Below are positions 8,220 through 15,915 of a DNA stretch of 16,724 nucleotides, in pieces (within the stretch, counting starts at the first letter, position 1; each line of letters starts with the position of its first letter). The DNA lies in IMG/VR virus record IMGVR_UViG_2671180460_000005. One strand, given 5' to 3'. The notes beneath the pieces were generated by a model. The model was not told the origin of the DNA and searched no databases. It saw only the letters and a list, made by a program, of their open reading frames with translations. Position numbers and translations under genes: made by a program. This stretch comes from a virus. Lineage: Duplodnaviria > Heunggongvirae > Uroviricota > Caudoviricetes.

Positions 8220-8764
8220 AAACGGGGGCTGAAGCCATCCGGGCGCTGGCCACACAACTTCCGTCGTTTCGTCAGAAACTGAGTGACGGCTGGTATCAGG
8301 TACGTATCGCCGGGCGGGATGTCAGCGAGTCCGGAGTAACGGCACAGCTCCATGAGCCGTTACCGGACGGTACGGTGATCCACATTGTTCCCCGGCTTGC
8401 CGGTGCAAAGCATGGCGGAATTTTTCAGACCATCCTGGGGGCTGTGGTTGTTGCGGTAGCCTGGTGGAATCCCGCGGGCTGGCTGGGTGCGGCAGCACTT
8501 ACGGGGATGTATGCCGCCGGGGCCAGTATGATCCTCGGCGGGATAGCGCAGATGCTGACACCGGCCATCAAAACGCCGTCCATGGAGTCCGCGGATAACG
8601 GCAAACAGAACACCTTTTTTTCCTCGCTGGATAATATGATCGCCCAGGGGAATCCGTTACCGGTACTGTATGGTGAGATGCGAGTGGGGTCGCGTGTGAT
8701 TTCACAGAGTATCAGTACTGCTGATGAGGGTGATGGTGGTCAGGTTGTGGTGATTGGTCGCTGA
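8117..8764 (+). CDS. I: Tail tip assembly protein, lambda gpI-like
   Basis: Product MAATHTLPLASPGMARICLYGDLQRFGRRIDLRVKTGAEAIRAL... and C-terminus ...NGKQNTFFSSLDNMIAQGNPLPVLYGEMRVGSRVISQSISTADEGDGGQVVVIGR match lambda gpI as I recall it, with a hydrophobic Gly/Ala-rich middle segment. ATG at 8117 is the first start after an in-frame stop; an alternative ATG lies at 8156. Confidence 0.88.
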   Translation: MAATHTLPLASPGMARICLYGDLQRFGRRIDLRVKTGAEAIRALATQLPSFRQKLSDGWYQVRIAGRDVSESGVTAQLHEPLPDGTVIHIVPRLAGAKHGGIFQTILGAVVVAVAWWNPAGWLGAAALTGMYAAGASMILGGIAQMLTPAIKTPSMESADNGKQNTFFSSLDNMIAQGNPLPVLYGEMRVGSRVISQSISTADEGDGGQVVVIGR

Positions 8765-8783
8765 TGTAAAACGTTTTATGTGA

Positions 8784-8809
8784 AACCGCCTGCGGGCGGT
8801 TTTGTTGTT
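8784..8809 (+). terminator. Terminator-like hairpin with weak T-tract between I and J
   Basis: ACCGCC (8785-8790), loop TGCG, GGCGGT (8795-8800) gives a 6-bp stem, followed by TTTGTTGTT (8801-8809). The T-tract is interrupted, so termination may be weak. Confidence 0.4.
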
Positions 8810-8824
8810 AATGGAGCCAGATAA

Positions 8825-11800
8825 ATGGGTAAAGGTGGCAGCAAGGGGCACACTCCTCGCGAAGCGAAAGATAACCTGAAATCCACGCAGTTACTGAGCG
8901 TGATTGATGCGATCAGTGAAGGGCCGATTGAAGGACCGGTGGACGGAATGAAAAGCGTGCTGCTGAACAGTACGCCGGTGCTGGACAGTGAAGGTAAGGC
9001 CAATTTCTCCGGGGTCACGGTGGTGTTCCGTGCCGGTGAGCAGGAGCAGACTCCGCCGGAGGGTTTTGAATCCTCCGGCTCCGAGACGGTGCTGGGTACG
9101 GAAGTGAAATACGACACGCCGATCACCCGGACCATCACATCAGAAAATATCGACCGCCTGCGTTTTACGTTTGGTGTGCAGGCTCTGGTGGAAACCACGT
9201 CTCAGGGGGACCGCAATCCGTCAGAAGTGAGATTACTGGCCCAGATCCAGCGTAACGGCGCCTGGGTGACAGAAAAAGACATCACCATTAAGGGTAAAAC
9301 CACCTCGCAGTATCTGGCCTCGGTGGTGGTGGATAACCTGCCGCCGCGCCCGTTCAGTATCCGGATGCGCAGGATGACGCCTGACAGCACCACAGACCAG
9401 CTGCAGAATAAAACGCTCTGGTCGTCATACACCGAAATCATCGATGTGAAACAGGGATACCCGAACACGGCACTGGTCGGCGTACAGGTGGATTCAGAGC
9501 AGTTTGGCAGCCAGCAGGTGGGCCGTAATTACCATCTTCGTGGACGCATTCTGCAGGTACCGTCGAACTATGATCCACAGACGCGGCAGTACAGCGGTAT
9601 CTGGGACGGGACACTTAAACCGGCATACAGTAACAACATGGCCTGGTGCCTGTGGGACATGCTCACCCATCCGCGTTATGGCATGGGACAACGTCTCGGG
9701 GCAGCGGAGGTGGATAAATGGACCCTGTATGTTATCGGTCAGTACTGTGACCAGTCAGTACCGGATGGCTATGGTGGCACGGAGCCGCGTATCACCTGTA
9801 ATGCTTATCTGGCATCACAGCGTAAGGCGTGGGACGTTCTCAGTGATTTCTGTTCGGCGATGCGCTGTATGCCGGTATGGAACGGACAGACGCTGACGTT
9901 CGTGCAGGACAGACCGTCGGATAAGGTGTGGACCTATAACCGCGGCAATGTGGTGATGCCGGATGATGGCGCGCCGTTCCGTTACAGCTTCAGCGCCCTG
10001 AAAGACCGCCATAATGCCGTGGAGGTGAACTGGATTGACCCGGATAACGGCTGGGAGACGGCGACGGAGCTGGTTGAAGATACGCAGGCTATTGCCCGTT
10101 ACGGTCGTAACGTCACGAAGATGGAGGCCTTTGGCTGTACCAGTCGGGGGCAGGCACACCGCGCCGGTCTGTGGCTGATTAAAACGGAACTGCTGGAAAC
10201 GCAGACGGTGGACTTCAGCGTGGGTGCAGAAGGGCTTCGCCATGTACCGGGTGACGTCATTGAAGTCTGCGATGATGACTATGCCGGTATCAGTACCGGT
10301 GGTCGCGTGCTGGCGGTGAACAGCGAGACCCGGACGCTGACGCTTGACCGTGAAATCATGCTGCCATCCTCCGGCACCACACTGATAAGCCTGGTTGACG
10401 GAAAGGGTAATCCGGTCAGCGTGGAGGTCAGGTCCGTCACCGACGGCGTGAAGGTGAAAGTGAGCCGGATTCCTGACGGCGTTGCCGGATACAGCGTATG
10501 GGGGCTGAAGCTGCCGACGCTGCGCCAGCGCCTGTTCCGCTGCGTGAGTATCCGTGAGAACGATGACGGCACGTATGCCATCACCGCCGTGCAGCATGTA
10601 CCGGAAAAAGAGGCCATCGTGGATAACGGGGCGCACTTTGACGGCGACCAGAGCGGTACGGTGAAGGGTGTCACGCCGCCAGCGGTGCAGCACCTGACTG
10701 CCGAAGTCACCGCAGACAGCGGGGAATATCAGGTGCTGGCCCGCTGGGACACGCCGAAGGTGGTGAAGGGCGTGAGCTTCCTGCTTCGCCTGACCGTGGC
10801 AGCGGATGACGGCAGTGAACGGCTGGTCAGCACAGCCCGGACGACGGAAACCACATACCGCTTCAGGCAACTGGCGCTGGGGCATTACACGCTGACGGTC
10901 CGGGCGGTAAATGCGTGGGGGCAACAGGGCGATGCGGCGTCGGTCTCTTTCCGGATTGCCGCACCGGCTGCGCCGTCACAGATTGAGCTGACGCCAGGCT
11001 ATTTTCAGATAACGGCGGTCCCGAAACTGGCTGTATATGACCCGACAGTGCAGTTTGAGTTCTGGTTTTCGGAAACGCGGATTGCGGATATCAGGCAGGT
11101 TGAAACCACAGCCCGCTATCTTGGCACGGCGCTGTACTGGATAGCCGCCAGTATCAATATTAAGCCGGGCCATGATTATTATTTTTACGTTCGCAGTGTG
11201 AACACAGTCGGCAAATCGACATTCGTGGAGGCCGTCGGTCGGGCGAGCGATGATGCCGAAGGTTACCTGGATTTTTTCAAAGGCCTGATAACCGAATCCC
11301 ATCTCGGTAAAGAGCTGCTGGAAAAAGTCGACCTGACGGAGGATAACGCCAGCAAACTGGAGCAGTTTTCGAAAGAGTGGAAGGACGCCAACGATAAGTG
11401 GAATGCCATGTGGGGCGTCAAAATTGAGCAGACCAAAGACGGCAAACATTATGTCGCGGGTATTGGCCTCAGCATGGAGGACACGGAGGAAGGCAAACTG
11501 AGCCAGTTTCTGGTTGCCGCTAACCGTATCGCGTTTATTGACCCGGCAAACGGGAATGAAACGCCGATGTTTGTGGCGCAGGGCAATCAGATATTCATGA
11601 ATGACGTGTTCCTGAAACGCCTGACGGCCCCCACCATTACCAGCGGCGGTAATCCTCCGGCATTTTCCCTGACACCTGATGGTCGGCTGACGGCGAAAAA
11701 TGCCGATATCAGTGGTAACGTGAATGCGAACGCCGGGACGCTCAGTAATGTGACGATAGCTGAAAACTGTACGATAAACGGTACGCTGAGGGCGGAAAAA

Positions 11801-12223
11801 ATCGTCGGGGACATTGTAAAGGCGGCGAGCGCGGCTTTTCCGCGCCAGCGTGAAAGCAGTGTGGACTGGCCGTCAGGTACCCGTACTGTCACCGTGACCG
11901 ATGACCATCCTTTTGATCGCCAGATAGTGGTGCTTCCGCTGACGTTTCGCGGAAGTAAGCGTACTGTCAGCGGCAGGACAACGTATTCGATGTGTTATCT
12001 GAAAGTACTGATGAACGGTGCGGTGATTTATGATGGCGCGGCGAACGAGGCGGTACAGGTGTTCTCCCGTATTGTTGACATGCCAGCGGGTCGGGGAAAC
12101 GTGATCCTGACGTTCACGCTCACGTCCACACGGCATTCGGCAGATATTCCGCCGGATACGTTTGCCAGCGATGTGCAGGTTATGGTGATTAAGAAACAGA
12201 CGCTGGGCATCAGCGTGGTCTGA
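8825..12223 (+). CDS. J: Central tail fibre / host specificity protein, lambda gpJ-like, 1132 aa
   Basis: ATG at 8825 with GGAG (8813-8816) upstream. 1132 aa, the same length as lambda gpJ. N-terminus [18 protein letters not shown] and C-terminal roughly 250 aa (...[56 protein letters not shown]...[14 protein letters not shown]) closely resemble lambda J as I recall it. FN3-like segments in the middle. Confidence 0.95.
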
Positions 12224-12239
12224 GTGTGTTACAGAGGTT

Positions 12240-12264
12240 CGTCCGGGAACGGGCGTTTTATTAT
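12240..12264 (+). terminator. Terminator-like hairpin with T/A-rich tract after J
   Basis: CGTCCG (12240-12245), loop GGAA, CGGGCG (12250-12255) gives a 6-bp stem with one G-U pair, followed by TTTTATTAT (12256-12264). Confidence 0.45.
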
Positions 12265-12284
12265 AAAACGGTGAGAGGTGAACG

Positions 12285-12905
12285 ATGCGTAATGTGTGTA
12301 TTGCCGTTGCTGTCTTTGCCGCACTTGCGGTGACAGTCACTCCGGCCCGTGCGGAAGGTGGACAGGGTACGTTTACGGTGGGCTATTTTCAGGTGAAACC
12401 GGGTACATTGCCGTCGTTGTCGGGCGGGGATACCGGTGTGAGTCATCTGAAAGGGATTAACGTGAAGTACCGTTATGAACTGACGGACAGTGTGGGGGTG
12501 ATGGCTTCCCTGGGGTTCGCCGCGTCGAAAAAGAGCAGCACAGTGATGACCGGGGAGGATACGTTTCACTATGAGAGCCTGCGTGGACGTTATGTGAGCG
12601 TGATGGCCGGACCGGTTTTACAAATCAGTAAGCAGGTCAGTGCGTACGCCATGGCCGGAGTGGCTCACAGTCGGTGGTCCGGCAGTACAAGGGATTACCG
12701 TAAGACGGAAATCACTCCCGGGTATATGAAAGAGACGACCACCGCCAGGGACGAAAGTGCAATGCGGCATACCTCAGTGGCGTGGAGTGCAGGTATACAG
12801 ATTAATCCGGCAGCGTCCGTCGTTGTTGATATTGCTTATGAAGGCTCCGGCAGTGGCGACTGGCGTACTGACGGATTCATCGTTGGGGTCGGTTATAAAT
12901 TCTGA
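12285..12905 (+). CDS. lom: Outer-membrane beta-barrel protein of the Ail/Lom/PagC/OmpX family (lysogenic-conversion moron)
   Basis: ATG at 12285 with GAGAGGTG upstream. N-terminal signal peptide MRNVCIAVAVFAALAVTVTPARA followed by EGG. Alternating hydrophobic beta-strand pattern and C-terminal ...VGVGYKF ending in Phe, typical of small outer-membrane barrels. Same position (between J and stf) as lom in lambda. Confidence 0.9.
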   Translation: MRNVCIAVAVFAALAVTVTPARAEGGQGTFTVGYFQVKPGTLPSLSGGDTGVSHLKGINVKYRYELTDSVGVMASLGFAASKKSSTVMTGEDTFHYESLRGRYVSVMAGPVLQISKQVSAYAMAGVAHSRWSGSTRDYRKTEITPGYMKETTTARDESAMRHTSVAWSAGIQINPAASVVVDIAYEGSGSGDWRTDGFIVGVGYKF

Positions 12906-12931
12906 TTAGCCAGGTAACACAGTGTTATGAC

Positions 12932-12958
12932 AGCCCGCCGGAACCGGTGGGCTTTTTT
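12932..12958 (+). terminator. Intrinsic terminator after lom
   Basis: GCCCGCC (12933-12939), loop GGAACC, GGTGGGC (12946-12952) gives a 7-bp stem with one G-U pair, followed by TTTTTTGTGGGG (12953 onward). Confidence 0.6.
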
Positions 12959-12969
12959 GTGGGGTGAAT

Positions 12970-15294
12970 ATGGCAGTAAAGATTTCAGGAGTCCTGAAAG
13001 ACGGCACAGGAAAACCGGTACAGAACTGCACCATTCAGCTGAAAGCCAGACGTAACAGCACCACGGTGGTGATGAACACGGTGGGCTCAGAGAATCCGGA
13101 TGAGGCCGGGCGTTACAGCATGGATGTGGAGTACGGTCAGTACAGTGTCATCCTGCAGGTTGACGGTTTTCCACCATCGCACGCCGGGACCATCACCGTT
13201 TATGAAGATTCACAACCGGGGACGCTGAATGATTTTCTCTGTGCCATGACGGAGGATGATGCCCGGCCGGAGGTGCTGCGCCGTCTTGAACTGATGGTGG
13301 AAGAGGTGGCGCGTAACACGTCCGTGGTGGCACAGAGTACGGAAGACGCGAAGAAATCAGCCGGCGATGCCAGTGCATCAGCTACTCAGGTCGCGGCCCT
13401 TGTGACTGATGCAACTGACTCAGCACGCGCCGCCGGCACGTCCGCCGGGCAGGCTGCATCGTCAGCTCAGGAAGCGTCTTCCGGCGCAGAAGCGGCATCA
13501 GCAAAGGCCGCTGAAGCGGAAAAAAGTGCCGCAGCCGCAGAGTCCTCAAAAAACGCGGCGGCCACCAGTGCCGGTGCGGCGAAAACGTCAGAAACGAATG
13601 CTGCAGCGTCACAACAATCAGCCGCCACGTCTGCCTCCATCGCGACCACGAAAGCGTCAGAGGCCGCCACTTCAGCACGAGATGCGGTGGCCTCAAAAGA
13701 GGCAGCAAAATCATCAGAAACGAACGCATCATCAAGCGCCAGTAGTGCCGCTTCCTCGGCAACGGCGGCAGGAAATTCCGCGAAGGCGGCAAAAACGTCC
13801 GAGACGAATGCCAGGTCATCTGAAACAGCAGCGGAACGGAGCGCCTCTGCCGCGGCAGACGCAAAAACAGCGGCGGCGGTGAGTGCGTCAACGGCATCCA
13901 CGAAGGCGACAGAGGCTGCGGGAAGTGCAGTATCAGCATCGCAGAGCAAAAGTGCGGCAGAAGCGGCGGCAATACGTGCAGAAAATTCGGCAAAACGTGC
14001 AGAAGATATAGCTTCAGCTGTCGCGCTTGAGGATGCGGACACAACGAGAAAGGGGATAGTGCAGCTCAGCAGTGCAACCAACAGCACGTCTGAAACGCTT
14101 GCTGCAACGCCAAAGGCGGTTAAGGTGGTAATGGATGAAACGAACAGAAAAGCCCCACTGGACAGTCCGGCACTGACCGGAACGCCAACAGCACCAACCG
14201 CGCTCAGGGGAACAAACAATACCCAGATTGCGAACACCGCTTTTGTACTGGCCGCGATTGCAGACGTTATCGACGCGTCACCTGACGCACTGAATACGCT
14301 GAATGAACTGGCCGCAGCGCTCGGGAATGATCCAGATTTTGCTACCACCATGACTAACGCGCTTGCGGGTAAACAACCGAAGAATGCGACACTGACGGCG
14401 CTGGCAGGGCTTTCCACGGCGAAAAATAAATTACCGTATTTTACGGAAAATGATGCCGCCAGCCTGACTGAACTGACTCAGGTTGGCAGGGATATTCTGG
14501 CAAAAAATTCCGTTGCAGATGTTCTTGAATACCTTGGGGCCGGAGAGAATTCGGCCTTTCCGGCAGGTGCGCCGATCCCGTGGCCATCAGATATCGTTCC
14601 GTCTGGCTACGTCCTGATGCAGGGGCAGGCGTTTGACAAATCAGCCTACCCAAAACTTGCTGTCGCGTATCCATCGGGTGTGCTTCCTGATATGCGAGGC
14701 TGGACAATCAAGGGGAAACCCGCCAGCGGTCGTGCTGTATTGTCTCAGGAACAGGATGGAATTAAGTCGCACACCCACAGTGCCAGTGCATCCGGTACGG
14801 ATTTGGGGACGAAAACCACATCGTCGTTTGATTACGGGACGAAAACAACAGGCAGTTTCGATTACGGCACCAAATCGACGAATAACACGGGGGCTCATGC
14901 TCACAGTCTGAGCGGTTCAACAGGTGCCGCAGGTGCTCATGCCCACACAAGTGGTTTAAGGATGAACAGTTCTGGCTGGAGTCAGTATGGAACAGCAACC
15001 ATTACAGGAAGTTTATCCACAGTTAAAGGAACCAACACACAGGGTATTGCTTATTTATCGAAAACGGACAGTCAGGGCAACCACAGTCACTCATTGTCCG
15101 GTACAGCCGTGAGTGCCGGTGCACATGCGCATACAGTTGGTATTGGTGCGCACCAGCATCCGGTTGTTATCGGTGCTCATGCCCATTCTTTCAGTATTGG
15201 TTCACACGGACATACCATTACTGTTGACGCTGCGGGTAACGCGGAAAACACCGTTAAAAACATCGCATTTAACTATATTGTGAGGCTTGCATAA
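12970..15294 (+). CDS. stf: Side tail fibre protein; lambda Stf-like N-terminal and shaft regions, different C-terminal receptor-binding region with His-x-His repeats
   Basis: ATG at 12970 gives [26 protein letters not shown]..., which matches the lambda Stf N-terminus as I recall it; GTG at 12964 is an in-frame alternative. Long Ala/Ser/Thr-rich repeat shaft, then the conserved fibre motif [24 protein letters not shown], then ...[40 protein letters not shown]... as in P2 H-type fibres, then a C-terminal block with eight H-x-H motifs. Confidence 0.92.
13320..14040 (+). repeat. Ala/Ser/Thr-rich low-complexity repeat region encoding the Stf shaft
   Basis: About 240 codons dominated by GCN, TCN and ACN codons, with recurring units such as AKTSETNA (near 13577-13602 and 13787-13812) and SSETNASS. 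It generates long spurious ORFs in the other frames and on the minus strand. Confidence 0.8.
14770..15213 (+). repeat. His-x-His repeat array encoding the Stf distal tip
   Basis: Eight H-x-H motifs (HTH, AHAH twice, HSH, AHAH, AHQH, AHAH, HGH) embedded in Gly/Ser-rich spacers, with recurring nucleotide units GGTGCNCATGCNCA. Confidence 0.8.
14806..14886 (+). repeat. Tandem 30-nt (10-codon) repeat inside stf
   Basis: GGGACGAAAACCACATCGTCGTTTGATTAC ([10 protein letters not shown]), then GGGACGAAAACAACAGGCAGTTTCGATTAC ([10 protein letters not shown]), then the partial unit GGCACCAAATCGACGAATAAC (GTKSTNN). Confidence 0.85.
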
Positions 15295-15875
15295 TGGCAT
15301 TCAGAATGAGTGAACTACCACGGACCATAAAAATTTATAATCTGCTGGCCGGAACCAATGAATTTATTGGTGAAGGTGATGCATACATTCCACCTCATAC
15401 AGGTCTGCCAGCAAACAGTACCGATATTGCACCGCCAGATATTCCGGCTGGCTTCGTGGCTGTTTTCAACAGTGATGAGGCATCGTGGCATCTCGTTGAA
15501 GACCATCGGGGTAAAACGGTTTATGACGTGGCATCAGGGGATGCATTATTTATTTCTGAACCCGGTCCGTTACCGGAAAATGTCACCTGGTTATCCCCGG
15601 ATGGAGAGTATCAGAAGTGGAACGGTACAGCCTGGGTGAAAGATGCAGAAGCAGAAAGACTGTTCCGGATCCGGGAGGCGGAAGAAACAAAAAACAGCCT
15701 GATGCAGGTAGCCAGTGAGCATATTTCACCGCTTCAGGATGCTGCAGATCTGGAAATTGCAACGGAGGAAGAAACCTCATTGCTGGCGGCCTGGAAGAAG
15801 TATCGGGTGTTGCTGAACCGGGTTGATACATCTTTAGCGCCGGAAATTGAGTGGCCGCAGCAACCTGTCAGTTAA
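15294..15875 (+). CDS. tfa: Tail fibre assembly chaperone, Tfa-like
   Basis: ATG at 15294 overlaps the stf stop as TAATG. 193 aa. It sits directly downstream of the fibre gene, and its N-terminal half (...[29 protein letters not shown]...[14 protein letters not shown]...) resembles the lambda/T4 gp38-type Tfa family as I recall it. Confidence 0.85.
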
Positions 15876-15882
15876 AGCATTG

Positions 15883-15903
15883 CCGGCGAAAGCTGGCTTT
15901 TTT
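15883..15903 (+). terminator. Terminator-like hairpin (GAAA tetraloop) with T-tract after tfa
   Basis: GCCGGC (15883-15888), loop GAAA, GCTGGC (15893-15898) gives a 6-bp stem with one G-U pair, followed by TTTTT (15899-15903). Confidence 0.5.
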
Positions 15904-15915
15904 GGGGAAAAATTT

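What the first reader, a model, noticed from the sequence alone, without database searches (positions are those of the whole stretch)
12970..15294. Side tail fibre is a three-part mosaic: lambda Stf-like base, P2 H-like middle, His-x-His tip
The first roughly 360 aa, including the Ala/Ser-rich shaft, follow lambda Stf. After the conserved junction motif [24 protein letters not shown] (about nt 14050-14120) the sequence switches to a segment (...[59 protein letters not shown]...) that I recognise from P2 H-type fibres. The C-terminus then carries an H-x-H repeat tip. The conserved junction motif is a known site for exchange between fibre genes of unrelated phages, so this gene records at least two horizontal exchanges and the receptor specificity cannot be inferred from the lambda-like N-terminus.
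Basis: partly seen in the sequence, partly recalled or inferred. Interest (0 to 1): 0.6.

Follow-up and report, generated by a model that had tools for sequence, protein, structure and literature searches.

The report
Intact Ur-lambda side tail fibre gene
This gene is an intact, near-identical copy of the side tail fibre gene (stf) of the original phage lambda, and its three-part patchwork ancestry is real but belongs to lambda Stf itself and has been described since about 1990, so the finding is ordinary.

Summary
[quoted passage not shown] There are no indels, 35 nucleotide differences (98.5% identity) and 16 amino-acid differences. It keeps the fourth C at 14153-14156 whose loss splits stf into orf-401 and orf-314 in laboratory lambda.

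- aa 1-354: a lambdoid collar domain and an Ala/Ser-rich shaft.
- aa 355-526: 80% identical to P2 H residues 168-339, with sharp borders.
- aa 527-774: 60% identical to the T4 gp37 tip (PDB 2XGF), with eight His-x-His motifs.

All three modules are already in Ur-lambda Stf, so no exchange has happened since lambda. The P2/lambda exchange is old (dS about 1.0, against 0.03 between this allele and Ur-lambda).

The receptor can be inferred. The tip differs from Ur-lambda at two residues outside the variable head and is under purifying selection, which points to OmpC, Ur-lambda's published receptor. Mosaicism, structure, receptor and permissive junctions (R393, S528) are all published.

The more unusual feature is a second fibre gene starting at 15916, outside the finding.

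The parts
12970..15294 (+). stf: intact side tail fibre gene, 774 aa, an Ur-lambda-type allele
   Evidence: colinear with Ur-lambda stf, no indels, 98.5% nt and 97.9% aa identity. dN/dS 0.28.
12970..13272 (+). N-terminal collar (tail-attachment) domain plus linker, aa 1-101
   Evidence: This is the first part of the PF08400 hit, which spans aa 1-134 with E 5.9e-74. aa 1-94 match the lambda Stf N-domain chain in cryo-EM entries 9E7M/9MGH with one substitution. Domain limits are taken from PMC12617516.
13273..14031 (+). Ala/Ser-rich proximal coiled-coil shaft, aa 102-354
   Evidence: In aa 120-354, 88 of 235 residues are Ala and 48 are Ser. The AAKTSETNA-type unit occurs three times. 12 of the 16 aa differences from Ur-lambda lie here; dN/dS 0.55.
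14032..14547 (+). P2 H-like module, aa 355-526: end of the proximal coiled coil, hinge and distal coiled coil. It opens with the PF03406 junction motif at nt 14053-14124.
   Evidence: 80% aa identity to P2 H aa 168-339 with no gaps. 79% nt identity, with the match ending abruptly at aa ~362 and ~524. dS about 1.0. Also 72-74% to the constant part of P1/P7 S.
14153..14156 (+). CCCC run: the site of the 1-nt deletion that splits stf into orf-401 and orf-314 in laboratory lambda (PaPa). It is intact here.
   Evidence: the window and Ur-lambda have CCCC, J02459 has CCC.
14548..15291 (+). T4 gp37-type receptor-binding tip, aa 527-774: collar domain, His-x-His needle, head
   Evidence: 60% identity to gp37 aa 811-1026. 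PDB 2XGF at E 8.8e-73. PF07484 Collar at aa 533-580. Eight HxH motifs at aa 601, 643, 657, 705, 719, 728, 737 and 746. Two substitutions vs Ur-lambda (aa 704, 753); dN/dS 0.09.
15294..15875 (+). tfa: tail fibre assembly chaperone, 193 aa. Its start overlaps the stf stop codon.
   Evidence: PF02413 at E 2.5e-43. 93% identical to lambda Tfa. 29% identical to T4 gp38, E 2e-17. The C-terminal half is 39% identical to P2 G.
12932..12953 (+). Terminator-like hairpin between lom and stf, followed by a GGGGTGA Shine-Dalgarno-like sequence before the ATG
   Evidence: 9-bp stem with 7 GC pairs, then TTTTTG.

Best explanation
The gene is a functional allele of stf, the side tail fibre of the original phage lambda (Ur-lambda). 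It sits in a lambdoid prophage of an Escherichia coli-like genome.

Inferred from near-identity to Ur-lambda, whose structure and receptor are published:
- Three chains form one fibre.
- The N-terminal domains of four trimers form a 12-subunit collar at the junction of tail tube and tail tip.
- An Ala/Ser-rich coiled coil, a hinge and a distal coiled coil project the C-terminal tip sideways.
- The tip is a gp37-type needle held together by His-x-His motifs. In T4 each motif triplet coordinates an iron ion.
- The tip folds with the help of the downstream chaperone Tfa and binds the porin OmpC reversibly.
- This speeds adsorption before the central fibre J binds its own receptor.

The three-module make-up (lambdoid base, P2 H-like middle, T4 gp37-like tip) is an old feature of lambda Stf itself. 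It did not arise in this prophage.
For: Shown here:
- Full-length gap-free colinearity with Ur-lambda stf, with 35 of 2325 nt and 16 of 774 aa different.
- The reading frame is intact at the PaPa frameshift site.
- The gene order J-lom-stf-tfa is the same, in one 4393-nt gap-free block at 97.6% identity to Ur-lambda.
- Selection is purifying: dN/dS 0.28 overall and 0.09 in the tip.
- There is no substitution between aa 493 and 703, which covers the region aligned to the variable head of gp37.
- Tfa is 93% identical to lambda Tfa.
- Module matches to P2 H, gp37 and PDB 2XGF/9E7M.
- dS is about 1.0 for the P2 module against 0.03 for window vs Ur-lambda, so the exchange long predates this allele.

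From papers:
- Ur-lambda Stf domain plan, four trimers, collar and OmpC binding (PMC12617516).
- OmpC, and working chimeras fused at R393 and S528 (PMC11338833).
Against: - Nothing here tests expression, assembly or binding.
- The allele has 16 substitutions relative to Ur-lambda. Two are in the tip (S704N just before an HxH motif, and N753D), so an altered preference among OmpC variants is not excluded.
- The prophage may be defective. The window holds only the tail genes.
- A second fibre gene with the same type of N-terminal domain follows tfa. It could compete for the collar sites.
Confidence: 0.93

Rival explanations
1. This is a newly assembled three-way recombinant: a lambda Stf base onto which a P2 H middle and a His-x-His tip were grafted in this prophage lineage, giving an unknown receptor specificity.
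For: Each module has a different set of relatives. The borders of the P2-like block are sharp.
Against: Ur-lambda Stf has the same three modules at the same positions, and the window differs from it by 1.5% with no indels. The P2 module is saturated at synonymous sites (dS about 1.0), so the exchange is far older than the split from lambda (dS 0.03).
Confidence: 0.02
2. The gene is a silent remnant in a decaying prophage and no longer makes a working fibre.
For: Only tail genes are visible in the window. Many E. coli prophage fibre genes are fragments: 4648 genomes match part of the gene but only 78 match at least 80% of it.
Against: The 774-codon frame is intact, and the late tail genes and tfa are complete. 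dN/dS is 0.28 overall and 0.09 in the tip. The identical protein occurs on 8 contigs from several assemblies.
Confidence: 0.05
3. It is a working lambda-type fibre, but the allelic differences have shifted it to another receptor or another OmpC variant.
For: There are two tip substitutions (aa 704 and 753) and 16 in all. Relatives with this tip family use different receptors: OmpC, OmpF, LPS (PMC9659904).
Against: The segment aligned to the gp37 variable head (about aa 660-700) is identical to Ur-lambda. Both tip changes lie in the needle part. N704 and the T4 residue at the aligned position are the same.
Confidence: 0.08

Closest known systems
Ur-lambda Stf (side tail fibre of the original lambda isolate; split into orf-401 and orf-314 in lambda PaPa)
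   Same: Same length (774 aa), same domain order, 97.9% aa identity, same neighbours (J, lom upstream; tfa downstream), and an intact frame at the PaPa frameshift site.
   Different: 16 amino-acid substitutions, 12 of them in the Ala/Ser shaft. The region downstream of tfa is not lambda's b region but a second fibre cassette.
Phage P2 tail fibre protein H
   Same: Residues 355-526 are 80% identical to H residues 168-339, including the PF03406 motif. A published functional lambda-P2 chimera is fused inside this shared block, at lambda Stf R393 (PMC11338833).
   Different: There is no similarity to the baseplate-attachment N-terminus of H or to its C-terminal receptor-binding part. Only the C-terminal half of the chaperone resembles P2 G. 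The tail types differ: siphovirus collar versus myovirus baseplate.
T4 gp37 distal long-tail-fibre tip (PDB 2XGF) with chaperone gp38
   Same: The last 247 residues are 60% identical. The seven HxH motifs of the gp37 tip all align, the C-terminus [11 protein letters not shown] is identical, and Tfa is related to gp38.
   Different: This protein has an eighth HxH motif in a 9-residue insertion, an extra GTKTTxSFDY repeat and a longer head segment; the alignment has 37 gap positions. The rest of gp37 (aa 1-800) is unrelated.
Longer Stf proteins of other lambdoid phages (mEp460, PhiR34_1, PhiR68_2; 1023-1134 aa)
   Same: They share the PF08400 N-terminal domain and Ala/Ser shaft, and some carry a tip about 71% identical.
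   Different: Their middle sections and lengths differ. Megablast similarity to them stops after roughly gene nt 850-915.

Membership tests
Lambda Stf (Ur-lambda-type side tail fibre) | PF08400 N-terminal collar/attachment domain | tested here: met
   E 5.9e-74 over aa 1-134. aa 1-94 match the lambda Stf N-domain in 9E7M/9MGH at E 6.4e-57 with one substitution.
Lambda Stf (Ur-lambda-type side tail fibre) | Full-length colinearity with Ur-lambda Stf | tested here: met
   774 vs 774 aa, no gaps, 97.9% aa and 98.5% nt identity.
Lambda Stf (Ur-lambda-type side tail fibre) | Position in the late tail operon after J and lom, followed by tfa | tested here: met
   Pfam assignments of the neighbours. 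Gap-free 4393-nt alignment to Ur-lambda from the end of J through tfa.
Lambda Stf (Ur-lambda-type side tail fibre) | Binds OmpC and accelerates adsorption | not testable with these tools
   Inferred from 99.2% identity of the last 244 aa to Ur-lambda and from published OmpC binding (PMC12617516, PMC11338833).
T4 gp37-type His-x-His needle tip | Sequence match to the solved tip (2XGF), including the collar domain | tested here: met
   E 8.8e-73 over aa 518-774. PF07484 at aa 533-580.
T4 gp37-type His-x-His needle tip | Series of HxH motifs aligned with those of gp37 | tested here: met
   Eight motifs are present. Seven align with the seven of the gp37 tip and one lies in a 9-residue insertion.
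T4 gp37-type His-x-His needle tip | Adjacent gp38/Tfa-type chaperone | tested here: met
   Tfa vs gp38: 29% identity, E 2e-17. PF02413.
T4 gp37-type His-x-His needle tip | Iron ions coordinated by the HxH triplets in a trimer | not testable with these tools
   Known for T4 gp37 (PMC11705849 citing Bartual 2010). Not measured for this protein.
P2 H tail fibre | H N-terminal baseplate-attachment region | tested here: not met
   No significant alignment outside H aa 168-339.
P2 H tail fibre | H C-terminal receptor-binding region | tested here: not met
   Only a chance-level match, E 0.017.
P2 H tail fibre | Shared middle shaft module (H aa 168-339) | tested here: met
   80% identity, 172 aa, no gaps. 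The gene shares a module with H but is not a member of the H family.

The most novel reading that the evidence does not exclude
This reading lies outside the finding's coordinates. The prophage carries two side-fibre cassettes in tandem: the lambda-type stf-tfa, and then a second fibre gene from 15916 followed by a DUF4376 gene. Both fibres have a PF08400 N-terminal domain, so both could dock on the same 12-site tail collar. That would give virions with mixed or alternative side fibres and hence two primary receptors. Within the finding itself, nothing new remains that the evidence leaves open beyond minor allelic variation.
Probability: 0.3. Interest if true: 0.4.

Novelty: already known. Interest (0 to 1): 0.1.

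Why it matters
It matters little as a discovery. The gene is a natural allele of one of the best-studied phage fibres. Its mosaic ancestry, structure, receptor and permissive fusion points are all published.

It is useful as an annotation correction. The reference lambda genome shows stf as two broken ORFs, which can make an intact copy look like a novel fusion.

The practical message is that this prophage's side fibre should be treated as OmpC-directed. Its module borders (about aa 393 and 528) coincide with the fusion points already used to engineer lambda particles with new host ranges.

Tried and rejected
- I looked for a breakpoint relative to lambda inside the gene. There is none: the differences are scattered point substitutions with no indels.
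- I looked for invertible-segment features, as in the P1/Mu/P2-like fibre C-termini. There are no inverted repeats of 18 nt or more in 12970-16724, and no recombinase gene within the window.
- Protein comparison with longer lambdoid Stf proteins gave ambiguous, overlapping alignments, because the Ala/Ser shaft aligns with itself in many registers. I did not use it for breakpoint mapping.
- tblastn of aa 1-357 covered only aa 1-150, because the low-complexity filter masks the shaft.
- The original papers (Haggard-Ljungquist 1992, PMC206541; Montag 1989, PMC210215) are not held in the library. They are cited only through PMC3945230 and PMC9659904.
- A literature search for lambdoid phages with two side-fibre genes found nothing.
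- I did not predict a structure. The tip is an intertwined trimer, for which a monomer model would be uninformative, and solved or published models of the near-identical protein exist.

Full report
**What is there.** The ORF at window 12970-15294 (+) starts with ATG behind a GGGGTGA ribosome-binding-like sequence and encodes 774 aa. An in-frame GTG at 12964 gives the 776 aa that the ORF list reports.

Pfam finds the following:
- PF08400, prophage tail fibre N-terminal domain, aa 1-134, E 5.9e-74.
- PF03406, phage tail fibre repeat, aa 358-396.
- PF07484, tail collar domain, aa 533-580.
- PF03335, a repeat at aa 638-651.

The neighbours are J (8825-12223), lom (12285-12905) and a tail fibre assembly gene (15294-15875, PF02413). 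This is the lambda order.

**Check of the observation.**
- The motif [24 protein letters not shown] is aa 362-385, nt 14053-14124.
- aa 355-526 align without gaps to P2 H aa 168-339 at 80% identity (E 3e-77). No other part of H matches.
- At DNA level, gene nt 1093-1568 are 79% identical to H nt 532-1007. Identity falls to background within about ten codons on each side.
- aa 528-774 align to the last 216 residues of a T4-type gp37 (phage RB55, species Tequatrovirus T4) at 60% identity, and to the solved gp37 tip 2XGF at E 8.8e-73.
- The tip holds eight H-x-H motifs, and 16 of the protein's 17 histidines lie in aa 591-774. Seven motifs align with the seven of the gp37 tip. The eighth lies in a 9-residue insertion.

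- A megablast of the gene finds 16 lambda-type phage records covering 100% of it at 98.4-98.5% identity.
- Against Ur-lambda (KT232076) the gene is the same length, has no indels, and differs at 35 of 2325 nt and 16 of 774 aa.
- The reference lambda genome (J02459, the laboratory PaPa strain) lacks one C in a CCCC run, window 14153-14156. That is why it is annotated as orf-401 plus orf-314. The window has the intact Ur-lambda form.
- The middle and the tip are the parts most like lambda. Window vs Ur-lambda shows 23 differences in gene nt 1-960, 3 in nt 961-1955, and 9 in nt 1956-2295.
- The similarity is part of one gap-free 4393-nt block at 97.6% identity, running from the end of J to the end of tfa.

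**The mosaic is real but old.** The modules have different relatives in the phage collection.
- N-terminal part: 302 records, almost all lambdoid or Stx phages.
- Middle: 175 records, including P2-like phages at about 81% and the constant part of P1/P7 S at 72-74%.
- Tip: 659 records, including T-even, FelixO1-like and other phages.
- The protein hits 52 PHROG families over different segments.
- Several fibres share only the 33-37 residues of the PF03406 motif with this protein and differ on both sides of it. That fits the motif's reputation as a junction.

Two further measures bear on age and origin.
- Synonymous divergence of the P2-like block from P2 H is saturated (dS about 1.0, third-position identity 56%). 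Window vs Ur-lambda gives dS 0.03. The exchanges therefore predate the lambda lineage by a wide margin.
- GC3 drops from 62% in the N-domain (J has 67%) to 47-51% in the distal modules and 44% in tfa. This is compatible with a different origin for the distal half.

**How it most likely works.** These points are inferred from near-identity to Ur-lambda.
- The cryo-EM/cryo-ET study of Ur-lambda (PMC12617516) describes four side fibres, each an Stf trimer.
- Its domain plan is: N-domain aa 1-91 forming a dodecameric collar at the gpV-gpM junction, linker 92-101, proximal coiled coil 102-393, hinge 394-422, distal coiled coil 423-525, and a gp37-like receptor-binding domain.
- The same paper and PMC11338833 state that Stf binds OmpC reversibly. 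PMC12617516 gives a 10-30-fold faster adsorption.
- The natural borders found here (aa ~362 and ~526) sit at or next to the positions where functional engineered chimeras were fused, R393 and S528.
- In T4 gp37 the HxH motifs coordinate seven iron ions (PMC11705849). By alignment, this protein would be expected to hold up to eight (inference).
- Tfa is 93% identical to lambda Tfa and related to T4 gp38. Published work shows lambda Tfa can replace gp38 (Montag 1989, as cited in PMC9659904).

**Is it functional, and does it have the same receptor?**
- dN/dS against Ur-lambda is 0.28 overall, 0.09 in the tip and 0.55 in the Ala/Ser shaft.
- There is no substitution between aa 493 and 703. That span includes the segment aligned to the variable head of gp37.
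- The two tip changes, at aa 704 and 753, lie in the needle part.
- The identical protein is encoded on 8 contigs from several assemblies.

I conclude that it is a working OmpC-directed fibre. Experiments are still needed to show this.

**Origin of the window.**
- The window equals contig LIVI01000058.1 (16724 nt) of assembly GCA_001420065.1.
- The closest complete genome is an E. coli strain from a cow (strain C5), at 96.6% over the whole window.
- Only window 6769-15856 resembles lambda, at about 93%. The left part is about 84% identical to mEp460-like phages.

**Comparison with what is known, and novelty.**
- The gene is a member of the lambda Stf family on every feature I could test.
- It shares a module with P2 H but is not a member of the H family: neither the N-terminal nor the C-terminal region of H matches.
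- It carries a gp37-type tip.
- All of this was described for lambda around 1989-1994. [quoted passage not shown]
- The structure, receptor and engineering use are recent and published.

Verdict: already known, low interest.

**Noticed outside the finding.**
- A second fibre gene starts at 15916 and runs off the end of the window, which is why the ORF list omits it. It has a PF08400 N-terminal domain (E 1.6e-52) that also matches the lambda Stf N-domain structure. The full-length homologue in E. coli C5 is 33% identical to Stf over the first ~245 aa.
- In longer contigs that encode the same Stf, the second fibre gene is 474 aa. It is followed by a DUF4376 gene and then ssrA/smpB, the prophage end.
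- Its nearest phage relatives are phiP27 L56/L57 and Rac-SA53 tail3/tail4. In both phages it is likewise the last cassette before attR and follows a first fibre cassette.
- In complete E. coli genomes, DNA matching this gene start (window 15860-16724) is found in 144 of 5426 genomes. Only two matches, in strains C5 and 2013C-3264, extend back to include the end of tfa.

Whether both fibres are mounted on one virion is open.

Noticed in passing
window 15916-16724 (+), running off the window end; full length in L010:8947-10371, followed by L010:10379-10942: A second side-fibre gene follows directly after tfa. It has a PF08400 N-terminal collar-type domain (E 1.6e-52), and its C5 homologue is 33% identical to Stf over the first ~245 aa. 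It is 474 aa in longer contigs, and is followed by a DUF4376 gene and then ssrA/smpB. Lambda has nothing like it at this position. The closest phage relatives are phiP27 L56/L57 and Rac-SA53 tail3/tail4, where it is also the last cassette before attR. DNA matching it is found in only 144 of 5426 complete E. coli genomes. It is possible that two fibre types share one collar.
   Followed up: partly
window 1-6768 versus 6769-15856: The tail region is itself a patchwork. The right part (L/K/I, J, lom, stf, tfa) is about 93-98% lambda-like. The left part (tail tube, chaperones, tape measure) is only about 84% like mEp460-type phages and does not match lambda by megablast.
   Followed up: partly
window 3405-6434 (+): The tape-measure ORF is about 1007-1009 aa (1007 aa as annotated in E. 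coli C5). Lambda gpH is 853 aa from my own knowledge, which I did not check here. If so, this phage would have a noticeably longer tail than lambda.
   Followed up: no
window 13382-14044 (-) and 13467-14417 (-): Long antisense ORFs of 220 and 316 aa lie inside the Ala/Ser-rich shaft. Lambda's record annotates an equivalent 'orf206b'. They are most likely by-products of the GCN-rich codon periodicity rather than genes.
   Followed up: no
window 12240-12255, 12932-12953 and 15882-15897 (+): Strong terminator-like hairpins with T-runs follow J, lom and tfa. Each fibre gene is therefore preceded by a terminator-like site and would need antiterminated late transcription. The region has 16 terminator-like sites against 4.2 expected.
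   Followed up: no
window 15514-15663 (tfa) and 11614-11763 (end of J): There are local dips in identity to Ur-lambda (87% and 90% in 150-nt windows, against 97-100% around them). These suggest small recombination patches in tfa and in the J C-terminal region.
   Followed up: no
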